A DNA stretch of 64,000 nucleotides. Source: a bacterium (lineage in GTDB: Bacteria > SAR324 > NAC60-12). Positions 849-61,650 of this stretch are shown here, piece by piece; the first letter of the stretch is position 1, and each line of letters starts with the position of its first letter. The notes below the pieces were generated by a model, which saw only the letters and a list, made by a program, of their open reading frames with translations, was not told the DNA's origin and searched no databases. The DNA is taken from positions 128,001-192,000 of the forward strand of contig CBDBHR010000025.1 of assembly GCA_965205865.1 (NCBI GenBank), in the 5' to 3' direction. The position numbers and the translations under genes are program-made.

Positions 849-1194
849 AATTCTTAATATTGAAGTTATTCAGAGTTATTTCAATGAATTATGGCACTTT
901 TTAACCTCAAGTTTAAAGATATAATTCTAAAAAATACCGTAACTATTTAGGTCTCTGAAAAACCCGTTTATTAAATATCGTTAAAAAAGATTCCCGGAGA
1001 GGATCGATCGTTTTCAAGTCCTCCCACGATATTGTTCAATCGATCGGAAACCCTCTTCTTTCATAAACACAACTTAACGAAGACGTGATTATAACACAAT
1101 AATAATGTCAACCCCCCAAGGCAAAATAAATGCGGGATTCAAAAAAAAAGTAACTATACTCTGAACGGGTTTAAATTTCACTTTTCAAAATTCC

Positions 1195-1274
1195 TGTTAT
1201 TCCGAGCTAAAGGGGCTGCCTAAGCAAGAATCTCATGGGAATCAAGAAGATCCTTCGGTTCCCTCAGGATGACA
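1195..1274. repeat. REP-like palindromic element (TGTyATyCyGAG...AGATCCTTCG...CTCAGGATGACA class)
   Basis: Ends TGTTATTCCGAG / CTCAGGATGACA pair with each other. Related remnants at ~10276-10301, ~11487-11561, ~12380-12391 and ~20521-20560. Confidence 0.55.
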
Positions 1275-1331
1275 AAAAAATGAAGAAATCATATGTTCAC
1301 AGTATATTTAGGTCCTTTATGGGGACCTTAA

Positions 1332-2852
1332 TTATAAAGGAGTTGCCAGAGGATGCAAAGCCTGAGTGAGCAAATCGAGGATGGATTTTCCCTGTTTTCT
1401 GGTAGTGGAAATGGCTCCCCGGATGATACAAAAAGCCTGAGATCCTTCAGCCGTTCGAAAGCCGCCGGAGATTTTTTGTTTCAGTTTAACCATGCGCACA
1501 TCTCGCTCGGCTTGGTTGTTGTCAAAAGGAACCCGGAAGTCATCCATGAATAACAAGTTTTCCTTTTCATAGAGGATCAAGCGATCGAGTAAATTTTTGG
1601 CTTTGCTCTGTTTGGGGCGTCCTCGTTTCTTTGTTTGAGGAGGGGGAGGATAGAGCTCAAGGGCTTCTTGGGTGATATCACGATAGCGTTGCCGGAAGTG
1701 ATCTAGTTGGACTGGACTCAAAGCAGATTGTTCTTTGAACTTGGCTTGGTCTACTTGCTTTTTGATCTCTACCAGTAAGTCGCTCATCTCCTGAGCCCAC
1801 AAGGCCTTTTCTTGTTGATAGGCCCGAGAGAGTTCACGTAAATGATGCGCATTGCAAAAGCCATGATCACACTCATAATGCTGGTAGCTCTCCCAGTGAT
1901 CATGAATGGCTGTCTTTTCAAACTGAGGCAGGATACCGGCGGCATCCATTCCGGCTTGACCCCGTTTGTCGTGGATAAAATAAAAGGTCAGCTCTTCGGT
2001 AGAGGCTGAATGAAGCCAGCGACGTTGTTTGTTTTCAAACAGAGAGGTTTCATCAAAATGAACCACCTCCGATTGAATCAGAGCTTCAGCCACTTGTTGT
2101 TGGAAGGGATAAAGCCTATGGGCGGCTTGCTGGAGGCTAGCATAAATCGTGGCCGCATTGAGCGGCTGGCCGAACAGATCCTCAAAAAATTGCTGGCATC
2201 GATCAAAGGGCAGAAACTGATATTGATTGAGATAAACCGCTAAGCCTTTGATCCGGGGACCATATTGAGTGGGTGCCTTTATCCCTGCTGGAAAGCTCGA
2301 GTGATTCAGATGCCGGCAGCAGGGACAAATTTTTTGTTCCACCTGGTGCTCGGTGACCTCTAATTGGAGCGGGGGAAGATCAAACACTTGGCGTTTATGC
2401 CTCGCCTCAACCACAACCTGGGATAAATCTTCTCCACAGGTTTCACAGGTGCTGGGAGAATGGGACTCCACCTGATCCGGTGATTCACTGAAAGCCAAAT
2501 GATGGCCTCTATGACCGGGTTGACCTCCGCGAGAGCGACCCCTGCTTTTACGTAAGCTTTTGTTCTTTCGACTTTGATCGGTGGAAGGAGGTTTACTTGA
2601 GTTTTGGCTGTTGAGAGCCAACTGATCCCGAAGTTGCTTATTTTCTGTTTCGAGAGCTTCAATACGCTTATTTTCTATTTCGAGACGTTCGAGGAGTTTT
2701 AATCGCTCTTTCTTCCATTGATCCCGTTCTTCTTCAAAGAGTTGACAGGCTTCTTGAAGAGCCTCAAGGAGGGAAGTCGATGAAATGGAATTAATATATT
2801 TTTTTTGAAATTTCGAGAGCATAAAATCCTTCCTGAATTTTATGCTATGCAA
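1332..2852 (-). CDS. IS66 transposase (TnpC-type)
   Basis: Coiled coil, NSQNSSKPPSTD, GGQPGHRG, CxxC...CPCC zinc finger, VHFDETS, FCNAHHLREL, PFDNNQAERDVRMVKLKQKISGGFR. True start may be MLSKFQ at 2822. Confidence 0.93.
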   Translation of the reverse strand: MHSIKFRKDFMLSKFQKKYINSISSTSLLEALQEACQLFEEERDQWKKERLKLLERLEIENKRIEALETENKQLRDQLALNSQNSSKPPSTDQSRKNKSLRKSRGRSRGGQPGHRGHHLAFSESPDQVESHSPSTCETCGEDLSQVVVEARHKRQVFDLPPLQLEVTEHQVEQKICPCCRHLNHSSFPAGIKAPTQYGPRIKGLAVYLNQYQFLPFDRCQQFFEDLFGQPLNAATIYASLQQAAHRLYPFQQQVAEALIQSEVVHFDETSLFENKQRRWLHSASTEELTFYFIHDKRGQAGMDAAGILPQFEKTAIHDHWESYQHYECDHGFCNAHHLRELSRAYQQEKALWAQEMSDLLVEIKKQVDQAKFKEQSALSPVQLDHFRQRYRDITQEALELYPPPPQTKKRGRPKQSKAKNLLDRLILYEKENLLFMDDFRVPFDNNQAERDVRMVKLKQKISGGFRTAEGSQAFCIIRGAISTTRKQGKSILDLLTQALHPLATPL

Positions 2853-2947
2853 ATTCCGTGCTTAAATCGAAGGGGTCTCTAAAGAAACCTAAATAGTTAC
2901 AAAATACCTTAAAATACCTTTTCGGCTAGGATCTAGCTCGTGAGGAC

Positions 2948-3775
2948 GTGGATGCCGTGTATGTGGCCACTCCAACCTCTGCGAAAGAAAGCATCACCCT
3001 TGCCGCGATTGCGGCAGGGAAGCATGTTCTCGTTGAAAAGGCATTCATTAATTGTGATTCGGTGAAACGAATGGCCGCAGCGGCGTCGTCCCAAAACGTG
3101 CTGTTCATGGATGCAACTCACTTTGTGCACCACCCCCGCACTGAAGCGATCCGGCAGGAGATCTCCAACTTGATTGCATCCCCTCTGTCGCTTCACACGA
3201 CCTTCTGCTTTCCATTCTCAGATCGAAGTAACATCCGCTTTGACCCCACCCAGGAACCGGCAGGTGCTCTTGGCGACATGGCATGGTACCCGATGCGGGC
3301 TGTTGTGGAATACCTGCAGCCGCCAGGAGAATTGACTACGGTTGCTGCGGTGGCGGAGCGAGACGCCGAGACCAAGTCGGTTATCCGCCTCACAGGTCTA
3401 GTCGGTTTCGCAAGCGGTGAAGCATCGACATTTGATGTTGGTTACACTGCTGGCGCAGTAGTATATGATCTTAGTTTGCTGGGAACGGCAGGCATGATCG
3501 TGTTGGATGATTTTGTGCTGGATTGGAACAACAGTTTTTTATTCCAGAACCCGGACATCAAGTGCGGTTACATTCACCGAAAGGGAATGGCTACTCGTCA
3601 GGATTTTACCTTTATCGAGACCCCTTCGAAAGTTCCAGCAGATGTGTTGATGATCGAATGCTTCACCGATCTCGCAAACTCAAATGACCGCTCCGCTCAG
3701 ACCATTTTCACAGACGCCTCACTGCAAACCCAGAGTTATCTCGATGCAATATGGGAGGCAATTAACCAAGAGTGA
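2948..3775 (+). pseudogene. Gfo/Idh/MocA oxidoreductase, N-terminally truncated
   Basis: DAVYVATP...GKHVLVEK and GALGDMAWY motifs present. The N-terminal Rossmann GxGxxG segment is missing; the gene begins just after the IS66 target duplication. Confidence 0.8.
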
Positions 3776-3779
3776 CAGC

Positions 3780-3906
3780 TACTCATGTGGAATTGCCAAC
3801 ACCTGTGAAGCCTGTGGGAAAGATTTATCCAAGGTGACGGTTGAGGCCACGCTCAAACGTCAGGTGTTTGATCTCCCCTCTCTGCAATGAGAGGTTACCG
3901 AACACC
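3780..3906 (+). pseudogene. IS66 transposase fragment
   Basis: TCEACGKDLSKV...KRQVFDLPSLQ*EVTEH, near-identical to 12905-13015. Confidence 0.8.
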
Positions 3907-3929
3907 AACCCCTGCGTGGCCAAAAGTAT

Positions 3930-4085
3930 TCATAGCAAACATAGCATCGTCAATGCGATTTTGTATGTCCTGAAAACGGCTTGTCAGTGGAGAATGCTTG
4001 GCCATGATTTACCTCCCTGGCAAAGCCTTTACGATCATTATCGCCGTTGGAAAAAACGCTGGACTGTGGAGCGAACATTCGCTTT
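3930..4085 (+). pseudogene. Internally deleted IS5-family transposase fragment
   Basis: IVNAILYVLKTACQWRMLGHDLPPWQSLYDHYRRW is fused directly to the C-terminal motif KRWTVERTF. Confidence 0.75.
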
Positions 4086-4409
4086 TTGGCTCATGCCGAA
4101 GATGGACCGCAATATATTTTTTTATAGCTGACCTCCATTGTTTCGCAATTCTCCTGATCCAAACTTGCTATAGGCTTTGCGCCGCCTAGTAGTGCTGAAA
4201 TCATGCCTTGTTGTTTTAGGGTAAGGAGTGGATTTTCGCTCGTTTGATTCAAAATTAGCTGTGGGAGGGTTCCCGCTCGATCGAATGAACAATACCGTGA
4301 GAGGACTTGAAAACGATGGATTCTTCCCGAGAATCTTTTTTCAATGTTATTGAACTGAACGGCTTCTGACTGTCCACGGATTTGAGTAGATTTATTGATT
4401 TTTTGTTTT

Positions 4410-4662
4410 TTTTTGCGAATCCCGAATTTATTTTACATCAGGGGATTGACATTGCATTTTATTGTATTATAATATGTCTTCGTTAAGGTGTTTTTAAAGA
4501 AGAGGGTTTCCGATCGATTGAACAATATCGTGGGAGGACTTGAAAACGATCGATCCTCTCCGGGAATCTTTTTTAACGATATTTAATAAACGGGTTTTTC
4601 AGAGACCTAAATAGTTACAGGATATTTAACTAAACGGGTTTTTCAGAGACCTGAATAGTTAC
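4410..4662 (+). mobile_element. Isolated IS66 right end with tandemly duplicated terminus
   Basis: 4496-4618 is the reverse complement of 939-1061 and ends in TIR CCTAAATAGTTAC. A second partial copy at 4621-4662 ends in CCTGAATAGTTAC. Confidence 0.85.
4446..4473 (+). promoter_or_regulatory. Consensus sigma70 promoter inside IS66 end, facing outward
   Basis: TTGACA (4446-4451), 16-bp spacer, TATAAT (4468-4473). Confidence 0.7.
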
Positions 4663-12416: not shown

Positions 12417-13371
12417 GTAACTATTCAGGTATCTTCAGAGAGCCCTTCGATTTAAGCACGGATTTTTCATTGCATGAAATACAGAAAGGATTTTATGCTC
12501 TCGAAAGTTCAAAAATATATTGATTCCATTTCATCGACTCCCCAGCTCGAGGCTCTTCAAGAAGCCTGTCAACTCTTTGAAAAAGAACGAGAGCAATGGA
12601 AGCAAGAGCGCTTAGAACTCCTCAAACGTATTGAAGTTCTCGAGACAGAAAATAAGCGTATTGAAGCGCTCGAAGTAGAAAATAAGCAACTTCGGGACCG
12701 GCTGGCTCTCAACAGCCAAAACTTGAGCAAGCCACCATCCACCGATGCAAGTCGCAAGAGTAAAAGTTCAGGTAAAAACAGGGGTCGCTCTCGCGGAGGG
12801 TTCCCACACGATCGATTAAACTATATCGTGGGAGGTCAACCCGGTCATAAAGGCCATCATTTGGCTTTCAGTGAATCGCCAGCTCGTATGGAACCTCATT
12901 TTGTCAACACCTGTGAAGCCTGTGGGAAAGACTTATCCAAGGTCTCGGTTGAGTCCACGCTTAAACGTCAGGTGTTTGATCTCCCCTCTCTGCAATGAGA
13001 GGTTACCGAACACCAAGTGGAACAAAAAATTTGTCCCTGCTGCGAGCATTTGAATCACTCGACGTTTCCGGCAGGGGTGTCAGCACCGACTCAATATGGT
13101 GCGAGAATCAAAGGCTTAGCCGTTTATCCGTAGCACTATCAATTTCTCCCCTTTGAGCGATGCCGTTAATGCTTTGAAGATCTTTTCGGCCAGTCTCCCA
13201 GCGTAGCCACGATTCATGAAAGCCTCCGGCAAGCAGCCCATTCGCCGCATCCCTTGCAACAACAAGTGGCTTTGATTCAATCCCCGCTCGTTCATTTTGA
13301 TGAAACGTCTCTGTTTGAAAACAAACAACGTCGCTGGCTTCGCTCGGCCTCGAGCAAGCAGATGACTTTTT
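12417..13371 (+). pseudogene. Truncated IS66 element (left TIR + degraded transposase)
   Basis: TIR GTAACTATTCAGGT at 12417. ORF 12474-12998 is homologous to 1332-2852, followed by stops and frameshifts through VHFDETSLFENKQRRW; cut at 13372. Confidence 0.88.
12795..12835 (+). repeat. 36-bp palindromic mini-insertion with GGAGG duplication
   Basis: Absent from the intact IS66 (SRGGQPGH); here the protein reads SRG-GFPHDRLNYIVG-GQPGH. Relatives at 4264-4304, 4501-4537 and 1020-1056. Confidence 0.85.
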
Positions 13372-61573: not shown

Positions 61574-61650
61574 GGCAGGGTAGCTCAGCTGGTGAGAGCG
61601 CAGGATTCATAACCCTGAGGTCGGGAGTTCAATTCTCCCCCCTGCTACCA
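61574..61650 (+). tRNA. tRNA-Met (CAT), probably elongator
   Basis: Acceptor GGCAGGG/CCCTGCT + ACCA, D arm GCTC/GAGC, anticodon loop TTCATAA, T arm GGGAG-TTCAATT-CTCCC. Lacks initiator features (C1:A72 mismatch, three G-C anticodon-stem pairs). Confidence 0.95.

What the first reader, a model, noticed from the sequence alone, without database searches (positions are those of the whole stretch)
12795..12835. 36-bp frame-preserving palindromic mini-element that targets GGAGG
Seen: the window holds both filled and empty sites. The intact IS66 reads CGC-GGA-GGT-CAA; the remnant reads CGC-GGAGG-[GTTCCCACACGATCGATTAAACTATATCGTG]-GGAGG-TCAA. That is a 31-bp core plus 5-bp duplication, adding 12 codons (GFPHDRLNYIVG) with no stop. 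It folds (TCCCAC-AC-GAT / ATCGTGGGA). The same architecture occurs at 4264-4304 (GGAGG-31 bp-AGAGG) and, 4 bp shorter, at 4501-4537 and 1020-1056. Established parallel: Rickettsia palindromic elements insert in frame in genes but are ~100-150 bp. Inference: an ultra-short, site-preferring non-autonomous element that hits Shine-Dalgarno-like or Gly-Gly sequences and can add peptide to proteins; the mobilising enzyme is unknown.
Basis: partly seen in the sequence, partly recalled or inferred. Interest (0 to 1): 0.75.

Follow-up and report, generated by a model that had tools for sequence, protein, structure and literature searches.

The report
36-base repeat inserted inside genes
A 36-base repeat found only in this bacterial genus has been added, next to GGAGG-like words, to about twenty working genes without breaking them, much like small palindromic repeats already known in other bacteria.

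Summary
Window 12795-12835 reads GGAGG, a 31-bp core, then GGAGG. It sits inside a decayed IS66 transposase gene. Nine intact IS66 copies in the genome carry a single GGAGG at that site.

The insert is one copy of a 36-bp repeat with about 200 units in this genome and none in a reversed-genome control. Its sister species has 14 matches, and 0 of 86 other genomes of the class have any.

Most units lie in the 3'-terminal module of an IS66-family element, often as tandem arrays. About 35 arrays lie in unique DNA, and some 19 of these are inside conserved genes such as alaS, pheT, recB, recC, lhr, purL and glgA. They occur in both orientations. Orthologue comparison shows exact 12-codon gains beside GARG/GGAGG, some specific to one of the two sister species.

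The hairpin is weak. No RAYT-type gene lies next to any unit, and I found no strand bias. The mechanism is not shown. I favour copy-choice at the GGAGG microhomology over an enzyme.

The closest known things are intragenic REPs and Rickettsia palindromic elements. I class this as a new variant of a known kind, of moderate interest. This scan has reported larger in-frame repeats in other genomes.

The parts
12795..12799 (+). Left GGAGG: the target copy, reading Gly-Gly in the transposase frame
   Evidence: The empty homologous site carries a single GGAGG.
12800..12835 (+). The 36-bp unit: a 31-bp core (12800-12830) plus the second GGAGG (12831-12835). It adds GFPHDRLNYIVG.
   Evidence: The same site is filled in 7 IS66 remnants genome-wide.
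12456..12995 (+). Open frame of a decayed IS66-family transposase N-terminus, 180 aa and then a stop. This is the host of the insert.
   Evidence: It is 69% identical over 178 aa to the intact transposase. There is a weak DUF6444 hit. All 7 filled copies are open for at most 182 aa.
2515..2533 (-). Empty site CTCGCGGAGGTCAACCCGG in the intact transposase gene
   Evidence: There are 9 such empty sites in the genome, in open frames of 459-511 aa.
939..2900 (-). Complete IS66-family element. Its terminal inverted repeats start GTAACTATTTAGG, and it is flanked by the 8-bp direct repeat AAAATACC at 931-938 and 2901-2908.
   Evidence: Sequence read directly. Near-identical full copies occur elsewhere, for example C30:935130-937098 at 99.8%.
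1332..2852 (-). Intact IS66 transposase, 506 aa. The insertion point falls between the DUF6444 and zf-IS66 domains.
   Evidence: Pfam hits DDE_Tnp_IS66 (8.4e-47), DUF6444 at residues 55-119 and zf-IS66 at residues 133-179.
939..1149 (-). 3'-terminal module of the IS66 element. It carries a 32-bp short form of the unit (1020-1056) inside a GGAGAGG/CCTCTCC stem that is followed by a T-run.
   Evidence: There are 96 such module anchors genome-wide.
4264..4304 (+). Full-length unit (GGAGG, 31 bp, AGAGG) in another module copy
   Evidence: The same flanks recur at many loci.
4407..4619 (+). A second module copy. It has a 12-of-12 sigma-70-like promoter (4446-4473) reading towards the element end and the short unit at 4501-4537.

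Best explanation
The insert is one copy of a genus-restricted 36-bp dispersed repeat with consensus GTTCCCRC-YCGATCGAT-YRAAC-RATAY-CGTGGGAGG. The family has two modes of spread. In the first, 1 to 4 tandem units sit in the 3'-terminal module of an IS66-family element. There they travel passively with the element and its fragments, and they multiply on the spot by tandem duplication. In the second, single or double units have repeatedly been added to unique chromosomal sites directly next to a purine word GARG(G), ideally GGAGG. The net gain is exactly 36 bp, bracketed by that word, so it looks like a 4-5 bp target duplication. Because 36 bp is 12 codons and most reading frames of the unit are open, copies that land in linkers or loops of genes, or on Shine-Dalgarno sequences, survive. 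Shown here: the family, its distribution, the exact 12-codon gains in both sister species, the target word and the tolerance by host proteins. Inferred, at roughly 0.45: new copies arise by copy-choice. A growing DNA strand that ends in GGAGG slips onto the identical word at a unit boundary elsewhere, copies one period and slips back. No dedicated enzyme would be needed.
For: Family size and control: 201 units against 0 in the reversed genome, and 187 profile hits in 155 arrays comprising 131 single, 19 double, 2 triple and 3 quadruple. Restriction to the genus: a strict pattern gives 84 matches in G000, 6 in G001 and 0 in the other 39 genomes searched. A second pattern gives 28 in G000 and 0 in 87 other genomes of the class. 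A looser pattern gives 126 in G000 and 14 in G001. Unique contexts: 41 of 166 arrays have both flanks single-copy. Hosts were confirmed by Pfam. Exact 12-codon gains: alaS site 1 is filled in G000 and empty in G001 and 8 other genomes of the family. lhr, recC and the 5'-nucleotidase gene are filled in G000 and empty in G001. purL is 12 residues longer than in G001, although that stretch aligns ambiguously. recB and tricorn are filled in both species and empty in G004. pheT and the DAO gene carry antisense copies that are empty in G001 and G004. glgA has 12 extra aa relative to G004. Three units are specific to G001 pheT, and G000 is empty at each. Target word: the DAO gene reads CCTCC[31]CCTCC against a single CCTCC in G001. 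IS66 reads GGAGG[31]GGAGG against a single GGAGG. Empty sites read GAAGG, GAAG, GAA GGA GGG and GAG GGA GAA. Evidence for copy-choice: the duplicated word always equals the junction between tandem units. Three arrays hold three identical units, each array with its own private variants, which points to local duplication at that same junction. 1 of 96 modules lacks the unit exactly at GAGAGG|GCG. Insert copy number differs between species, with 1 unit against 2 at SNF2 helicase site 1. Copies occur in both orientations. Solo arrays are clustered: 17 of 34 have a neighbour within 10 kb, against 4.3 expected and a maximum of 14 in 2000 random placements. No Y1/HUH gene lies within 1.7 kb of any unit. 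Tolerance by hosts: in the DAO-type enzyme the 12 insertion columns are occupied in 2 of 44 homologues. In a model with mean pLDDT 91.5 the insertion region is the only extended internal stretch of low confidence, about 60, and is predicted as coil.
Against: No donor was identified for any insertion. The nearest relatives of the IS66 insert differ by at least 4 of 36 bases. All unique-context copies are in the same phase, whereas pure microhomology-driven switching might be expected to give other phases as well, for example at the CGATCG word. A fixed phase, short inverted ends (TTCCCAC/GTGGGAG) and a constant duplication length are also what a transposase would produce. Neighbouring copies are only slightly more alike than distant ones (0.71 against 0.68, permutation P = 0.03, tandem pairs included). 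Activity does not look recent. Contigs of strains about 2% diverged, from three other studies, carry all four arrays of a 10-kb region with no 36-bp gap or joint. Genic copies are 20-40% diverged from the consensus. The orientation ratio in genes, about 13 chromosomal sense sites to 6 antisense, was not tested statistically.
Confidence: 0.45

Rival explanations
1. The unit is a true miniature non-autonomous transposon, REP-like or IS200/IS605-like. A single-stranded hairpin would be cut out and pasted 3' of a GGAGG target by a Y1/HUH transposase encoded elsewhere in the genome. The second GGAGG would then be the element's own right end, not a duplication.
For: The phase is fixed and the size is constant, and the unit has short inverted ends. 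The target word is specific. The genome holds 15 matches to Y1_Tnp (PF01797), including five 335-aa paralogues in one 25-kb stretch. Stem position 7/30 occurs as A-T (41), G-T (38) and G-C (8) in 125 distinct units. REPs of 20-40 bp are known to lie inside recB, helicase and tRNA-synthetase genes (PMC3733652, abstract and passages of sections 3, 15 and 17).
Against: No Y1 gene is flanked by units. The nearest unit is 1753 bp away and 13 of the 15 loci are more than 5 kb from any unit. The unit has no GTAG or CGTC tag. Units form direct tandem arrays, and no inverted doublets were seen. There is no strand bias relative to GC skew (20:15, p = 0.5), although the skew is weak. The hairpin is no more stable than shuffled sequence.
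Confidence: 0.2
2. A conventional DDE transposase, possibly the IS66 enzyme whose element carries the units near its end, makes a staggered 5-bp cut at GGAGG and inserts the 31-bp core.
For: The footprint is a 5-bp direct repeat around a core with short inverted ends. The units sit in the subterminal region of the IS66 element, where transposase-binding repeats often lie. This last point is inference.
Against: The IS66 element itself makes an 8-bp duplication, AAAATACC, and ends in GTAAC, which is unrelated to the unit ends. A 31-bp core is too short to hold two transposase end sites, by established knowledge of DDE transposition. The duplicated word is never an arbitrary sequence.
Confidence: 0.07
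3. The unit is mainly a functional cis-element, a 5'-UTR hairpin that partly covers a GGGAGG Shine-Dalgarno sequence. It would have been recruited repeatedly by selection, and the genic copies would be by-products.
For: At least five copies end 6-8 nt before start codons: glgC, an mrp-like gene, C27:107272, C28:412680 and C30:26851. The arm TTCCCAC can pair with GTGGGAG, which is part of the ribosome-binding word. Module copies lie downstream of a 12/12 promoter.
Against: The downstream genes have no common function. About 19 copies are inside coding regions, in both orientations. Folding energy is not better than shuffles and covariation is minimal. Rfam gathering thresholds give only a tRNA in the window.
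Confidence: 0.08
4. There is no insertion process at all. The IS66 insert would be a local gene conversion from the element's own end, and the matches inside genes would be chance or ancestral coding motifs.
For: The IS66 end module carries the unit, so a donor lies within the same element. Two low-scoring gene hits, in phosphatidylserine decarboxylase and an AIRS-family gene, fall inside conserved Pfam domains and look like chance resemblance to ordinary coding sequence. That the PSD stretch is a conserved family motif is my recollection.
Against: There are 0 hits in the reversed-genome control at the score used. Exact 12-residue gaps appear in orthologues for 13 or more sites, in reciprocal directions between the two species. 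For the DAO-type enzyme, 42 of 44 homologues lack the segment.
Confidence: 0.03

Closest known systems
Intragenic REPs (repetitive extragenic palindromes found inside genes; Di Nocera, De Gregorio and Rocco 2013, PMC3733652; I read the abstract and passages of sections 3, 7, 12, 15 and 17)
   Same: Both are short (20-40 bp), high-copy and lineage-specific repeats. A minority of copies lie wholly inside ORFs and add about 10-30 residues. The favoured hosts are the same kinds of gene: recB/recBCD, UvrD-type helicases and tRNA synthetases. Some hosts carry two inserts.
   Different: This unit has no unpaired GTAG or CGTC tag. No RAYT gene is flanked by it. Units form direct tandem arrays, not inverted pairs. 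The stem is weak. There is a clear 4-5 bp direct repeat of a GARG/GGAGG target. The main reservoir is inside an IS66-family element end.
Rickettsia palindromic elements (RPE; Ogata et al. 2000 and 2002, as summarised in PMC10969869 section 4.2 and PMC3733652 Background; I read passages only)
   Same: Both are selfish palindromic repeats inserted in frame into unrelated housekeeping genes, translated as extra peptide and tolerated by the host protein. The mechanism of movement is unknown in both cases.
   Different: RPEs are about 100-150 bp and encode a conserved peptide in one frame. This unit is 36 bp and is read in all three sense frames and in two antisense frames. It is in a different phylum. 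The RPE sequences themselves were not compared here.
Small dispersed repeats (SDR) of Nostoc and Anabaena (Elhai et al. 2008, Genome Res 18:1484; the paper is not held, so this is recalled, and I saw only its listing as reference 43 of PMC3116915)
   Same: Both are mobile-looking repeats far below MITE size (21-27 nt there) with a hairpin. Both are nested in larger repeated elements and are present or absent between close relatives.
   Different: I could not read the paper, so target duplication, in-frame gene insertion and array structure could not be compared. There is no sequence relationship that I know of.
[quoted passage not shown]
   Same: Both are non-coding, high-copy, flanked by a short direct repeat of the target and derived from or linked to an insertion sequence.
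   Different: MITEs are 70-300 bp with 15-30 bp terminal inverted repeats that match a transposase. Here the core is 31 bp with 6-7 bp inverted ends that do not match the IS66 ends. The duplication is 5 bp, whereas the IS66 element makes an 8-bp duplication.

Membership tests
REP / REPIN-RAYT system | Short (20-40 bp) imperfect palindrome in high copy number | tested here: met
   The unit is 36 bp and there are about 200 units. The stem is only 6-9 bp and is not more stable than shuffles.
REP / REPIN-RAYT system | Unpaired GTAG or CGTC tetranucleotide at one end (PMC3733652 abstract) | tested here: not met
   The unit consensus and its flanks read GAGG ... GGGAGG on one strand and CCTCCC ... 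CCTC on the other. Neither tag is present.
REP / REPIN-RAYT system | A RAYT (Y1/HUH transposase) gene flanked by the repeat, forming a REPtron | tested here: not met
   There are 15 PF01797 matches. The nearest unit to any of them is 1753 bp away, and for 13 of the 15 it is more than 5 kb away.
REP / REPIN-RAYT system | Units commonly paired in inverted orientation (REPIN/BIME) | tested here: not met
   All 24 multi-unit arrays are direct head-to-tail repeats with a 36-bp period. I made no dedicated search for inverted pairs.
Rickettsia palindromic elements | In-frame insertion in unrelated functional genes | tested here: met
   There are about 19 gene sites, and 13 or more have exact 12-codon (or near-24-codon) differences from orthologues.
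Rickettsia palindromic elements | Size of about 100-150 bp, with a family-specific conserved peptide | tested here: not met
   The unit is 36 bp. The peptide depends on the frame: GSHPIDQTIPWE, GFPPDRSNNTVG or VPTRSIKQYRG on the sense strand, and PPTVL.. or LPRY.. on the antisense strand.
Rickettsia palindromic elements | Sequence homology to RPE-1 to RPE-10 | not tested
MITE | Length of 70-300 bp with 15-30 bp terminal inverted repeats matching a parent IS | tested here: not met
   The core is 31 bp with inverted ends of 6-7 bp. The IS66 ends, GTAACTATTTAGG.., are unrelated to them.
MITE | Target-site duplication | tested here: met
   The direct repeat is 5 bp (GGAGG) in IS66 and the DAO gene, and 4-5 bp (GARG(G)) elsewhere.
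IS200/IS605-type single-strand transposition | Insertion biased to one replication strand | tested here: inconclusive
   20 of 35 unique arrays lie on the G-rich strand (p = 0.5). Only 7 sites have |GC skew| of 0.02 or more.
Rfam-described RNA family | Match at the gathering score | tested here: not met
   The only hit in the window is a tRNA at 61574-61647. I ran no search at the permissive E-value threshold.

The most novel reading that the evidence does not exclude
The 31-bp core would be the smallest known target-duplicating mobile DNA. It would be moved by a dedicated, still unidentified enzyme that recognises the short hairpin and cuts at GGAGG. That would let it seed new Shine-Dalgarno-bearing hairpins upstream of genes and new 12-residue loops inside essential proteins.
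Probability: 0.2. Interest if true: 0.8.

Novelty: new variant of a known kind. Interest (0 to 1): 0.5.

Why it matters
This case shows how far the miniaturisation of gene-invading repeats can go. A 36-bp unit has entered aminoacyl-tRNA synthetase, recombination, helicase and metabolic genes in two sister species without inactivating them. The footprint is unusually clean, with exact 12-codon gains beside GGAGG, and filled and empty sites are available in both directions between the species. That makes it a good natural system for asking how sub-MITE repeats spread, by an enzyme or by templated copying, a question still open for REPs, RPEs and the cyanobacterial small dispersed repeats. There is also a practical point. 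Such inserts create lineage-specific loops and duplicated ribosome-binding sites that gene callers and orthologue alignments will misread.

Tried and rejected
1. A cyanobacterial HIP1/SDR identity, my first idea because of the CGATCG word. Homologue names point to the SAR324 cluster. The SDR paper could not be read.

2. REPtron structure. No unit lies next to any of the 15 Y1_Tnp loci.

3. A known RNA family. Rfam at gathering thresholds gives only a tRNA. The RNA fold of the module transcript has z = -1.1.

4. Hairpin covariation. It is barely above shuffled columns. The alignment was also blurred because short-form units were padded to 36 columns.

5. Replication-strand bias. None was seen, but GC skew is weak.

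6. Local copying from neighbours. The identity excess is only marginal.

7. Population polymorphism. Logan contigs of runs X4, X5, X7 and X8 were laid on C30:24001-34000. They showed no 36-bp gap or joint at the four arrays. X8 left parts uncovered. Contigs drop rare variants, so this says only that these copies are fixed in those strains.

8. Codon-usage scoring to call the coding strand around solo copies. It was too noisy to use alone, so I replaced it with open-frame plus Pfam checks.

9. The search for related loci on genome contigs with AlaRS. It returned only distant relatives, with at most 58% identity in the best segment, and no close kin.

10. The crude regex classes (106/7/42) misfiled several module copies as solo. 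The flank-copy-number test superseded them.

11. Profile hits scoring 12-13 in the phosphatidylserine decarboxylase gene and an AIRS-family gene were set aside as probable chance matches.

12. glgA was not found in G001 with this query, so that site was compared only with G004.
Full report
OBSERVATION. Window 12795-12835 reads GGAGG, then GTTCCCACACGATCGATTAAACTATATCGTG, then GGAGG, inside an open frame whose product resembles the N-terminus of an IS66-family transposase. The same window holds a complete IS66-family element at 939-2900. Its inverted ends start GTAACTATTTAGG and it is flanked by an 8-bp duplication, AAAATACC. Its 506-aa transposase carries the Pfam domains DDE_Tnp_IS66, zf-IS66 and DUF6444. 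That gene reads CGC GGA GGT CAA at the homologous place, window 2515-2533 on the minus strand. BLASTP of the two proteins gives 69% identity over 178 residues, with one clean gap of 12 residues, GFPHDRLNYIVG.

THE FAMILY. A fuzzy search of the whole genome (4.74 Mb in 30 contigs; the window is C25:128001-192000) with the 36-mer finds 94 copies at up to 8 substitutions. A profile built from those finds 187 hits in 155 arrays: 131 single, 19 double, 2 triple and 3 quadruple, all head-to-tail with a 36-bp period. A second profile, built from copies in unique DNA, finds 201 units at score 12 or more, against 0 in the reversed genome.

The family is confined to this genus among the genomes searched:
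- A strict pattern gives 84 matches in G000, 6 in the sister species G001 and none in 39 other genomes of the family and order.
- A second pattern gives 28 matches in G000 and none in 87 other genomes of the class.
- A looser pattern gives 126 matches in G000 and 14 in G001.

Names attached to homologues of one host protein point to the SAR324 cluster. Earlier notes of this scan on the same genome say the same.

WHERE THE COPIES LIE. 125 of 166 arrays have repeated flanks. Most of these sit in a module of about 210 bp that forms the 3' end of the IS66 element. Reading towards the element terminus, the module holds a 12-of-12 TTGACA-16-TATAAT match, then GGAGAGG, then 1-4 units, then ACTTGAAAACGATCGATCCTCTCC, a T-run and the terminal repeat. 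There are 96 module anchors in the genome. Only one module lacks any trace of a unit, and it reads GAGAGG|GCGTGAAAAC, 160 bp from a filled module. Three arrays contain three identical units, each array with its own private variants, so arrays grow by local duplication.

The IS66 gene site is filled in 7 copies. All 7 are truncated, with open frames of 59-182 aa, and their DNA is only about 80-85% identical to the intact lineage. The site is empty in 9 copies, whose frames are open for 459-511 aa. This was therefore one old insertion into a now-decayed IS66 lineage that was later dispersed. The copies at 1020, 4264 and 4501 are module copies and not separate insertions.

INDEPENDENT INSERTIONS IN GENES. 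41 arrays have single-copy flanks on both sides, and 34 of these score 20 or more. Open-frame analysis and Pfam place many of them inside conserved genes.

On the coding strand:
- alaS, at two sites
- recC
- recB
- an SNF2/NOV_C helicase gene, at two sites with two units each
- lhr
- the tricorn protease gene
- a lipoyl-domain dihydrolipoamide dehydrogenase gene
- purL
- a 5'-nucleotidase gene
- a phage-type integrase gene
- an MFS transporter gene

On the opposite strand:
- pheT
- a DAO-type (D-arginine-dehydrogenase-like) oxidoreductase gene
- glgA
- near the ends of the coding region: a DUF255 protein gene, an arginyl-transferase gene and an acyltransferase gene

All three sense frames are used, giving GSHPIDQTIPWE-like, GFPPDRSNNTVG-like and VPTRSIKQYRG-like peptides. 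Module units carry TGA in the first of these frames (GAT TGA AC), while genic copies in that frame have a sense codon at that point.

At least five further copies end 6-8 nt before start codons, so that their GGGAGG can serve as the ribosome-binding site. These lie upstream of glgC, an mrp-like gene and three others.

By the Pfam coordinates, most inserts fall at domain boundaries or linkers. Examples are between the lipoyl and flavoprotein domains, just after Exonuc_V_gamma, just before WH4_Lhr, and between tRNA_bind and B3_4. The copies in the DAO-type enzyme and GlgA lie inside a domain.

FILLED AND EMPTY ORTHOLOGUES.
- alaS site 1: G000 has 12 residues, GSRRVDQTTMGE, that G001 and 8 other genomes of the family lack. 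The DNA reads TTC GAG G[36 bp]GG AAT, against TTT GAA GGG AAT.
- alaS site 2: G001 has one unit. G000 has 48 extra residues, consisting of the unit, a partial unit and a G/C-rich palindrome. The other 8 genomes have none.
- lhr, recC and the 5'-nucleotidase gene: exact 12-residue gaps in G001. purL is 12 residues longer in G000 than in G001, but that stretch is variable and aligns ambiguously.
- recB and tricorn: filled in both species, with exact 12-residue gaps in G004, so these insertions are older.
- pheT and the DAO gene (antisense copies): exact 12-residue gaps in G001 and G004. The DAO gene reads CCTCC[31 bp]CCTCC against a single CCTCC, a perfect 5-bp duplication of GGAGG.
- glgA: 12 extra residues relative to G004. 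It was not found in G001 with this query.
- MFS gene: 22 extra residues relative to G001.
- In the reverse direction, G001's pheT carries three sense-strand units that G000 lacks, each an exact 12-residue gap. The G000 empty sites read GAA GGA GGG ATT and GAG GGA GAA ATT.
- SNF2 site 1 has one unit in G001 and two in G000.

Insertions therefore happened repeatedly, in both lineages and before their split, always next to a GARG(G) word.

EFFECT ON PROTEINS. For the DAO-type enzyme, the 12 insertion columns are occupied in only 2 of 44 aligned homologues: G000's protein and a 97%-identical one, plus one residue of a third. An AlphaFold2 model built on that alignment has mean pLDDT 91.5. The only extended internal stretch of low confidence is residues 231-250, at about 60 and predicted as coil, and that stretch covers the insert; one other block of ten residues (41-50) averages 70. 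The insert is tolerated as a floppy loop.

STRUCTURE AND MECHANISM. The palindrome is weak. Folding energies are no better than shuffles on either strand and covariation is minimal. No Y1/HUH gene lies within 1.7 kb of a unit. The unit has no GTAG or CGTC tag, no inverted doublets were seen, and there is no strand bias relative to the weak GC skew, at 20:15.

Unique-context arrays are clustered. 17 of 34 have a neighbour within 10 kb, against 4.3 expected and a maximum of 14 in 2000 random placements. Neighbours are only marginally more alike than distant pairs. Strains about 2% diverged, from three other studies, carry all four arrays of C30:24-34 kb with no 36-bp difference, so those copies are fixed.

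The footprint is a net gain of exactly one period, bracketed by the same word that joins units in arrays. Either a target-specific enzyme or copy-choice at the GGAGG microhomology would produce it. I favour copy-choice, at about 0.45, for four reasons. The core is too short for two transposase ends. The supposed duplication is never an arbitrary sequence. The same junction serves tandem amplification and the one precise loss. No enzyme gene is linked to the units. The constant phase of all copies and the lack of identified donors count against copy-choice. An HUH-type mobilisation in trans remains possible, at about 0.2.

COMPARISON WITH KNOWN ELEMENTS. Di Nocera et al. 2013 (PMC3733652; abstract and passages read) describe REPs of 20-40 bp that lie inside genes in several species, notably recBCD, UvrD-type helicase and tRNA-synthetase genes. 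This is the closest precedent. The present unit fails the REP tag, RAYT and inverted-pair features that I tested. Rickettsia palindromic elements (passages of PMC10969869 and PMC3733652) share the in-frame habit but are about four times longer. The cyanobacterial small dispersed repeats (Elhai et al. 2008) could not be read, so I cite them from memory and from a reference list. This scan has already reported larger in-frame palindromic repeats in other genomes, and a different G/C-rich repeat inside lon, selA and rne of this same genome. One of those G/C-rich palindromes is nested beside the unit in alaS site 2.

VERDICT. The element is a new, very small variant of a known kind of gene-invading repeat. 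Its way of spreading is not shown.

Noticed in passing
window 4446-4473 (+), and the mirrored copy near 1090-1120 (-): Each IS66 end module carries a perfect or near-perfect sigma-70 consensus (TTGACA-16-TATAAT, 12 of 12 at 4446-4473). It reads outward through the unit and a stem plus T-run towards the element terminus. With 96 module anchors in the genome, this could be a highly repeated small transcript or an outward promoter acting on neighbouring genes.
   Followed up: partly
window 900-938 and 2901-2939: The 39-bp stretches that flank the IS66 element recur at 100% identity at some 20 or more other loci. At several of these loci the two stretches overlap each other. The element therefore seems to insert into another short repeat family.
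   Followed up: no
G000:C27:34570-34700 (alaS site 2; locus L021): Beside the unit lies a G/C-rich palindrome, CCCTCTCCCCCGGAGGGAGAGGG, translated as a Pro/Gly-rich stretch. It looks like the different repeat family that earlier notes of this scan found in lon, selA and rne of this genome. Two repeat families are thus nested at one site of an essential gene.
   Followed up: partly
G000:C29:722638-745882: Five paralogous Y1_Tnp (PF01797) open frames of 335 aa lie within about 25 kb on one strand, out of 15 matches in the genome. No 36-bp unit is adjacent to them.
   Followed up: partly
window 3780-3905 and 12890-13020: Two fragments of the IS66 transposase gene end at the same in-frame TGA, in the shared sequence CTGCAATGAGAGGTTACCGAACACCAA. 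The truncated, filled IS66 form therefore looks like a dispersed composite repeat and not seven independent decays. ORFs nearby are a GFO/IDH/MocA oxidoreductase fragment (2948-3775) and a DUF4096 IS4/5-type transposase fragment (3841-4131).
   Followed up: no
L164 (G000:C30:24001-34000), positions 2976-2981: Contigs of three other strains (runs X4, X5, X7) all break at the same point, with unrelated loose ends, about 90 bp from the unit at 2851-2886. This could be a strain-specific insertion or a repeat boundary.
   Followed up: no
G001 pheT (L165) compared with G000 pheT (L149): pheT of the two sister species differs by four unit insertions, three in G001 and one antisense in G000. G000 also has a further 14-residue segment, KNSQSPCPPLQKEG, that is absent from G001. 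This makes pheT a hotspot for small insertions.
   Followed up: partly
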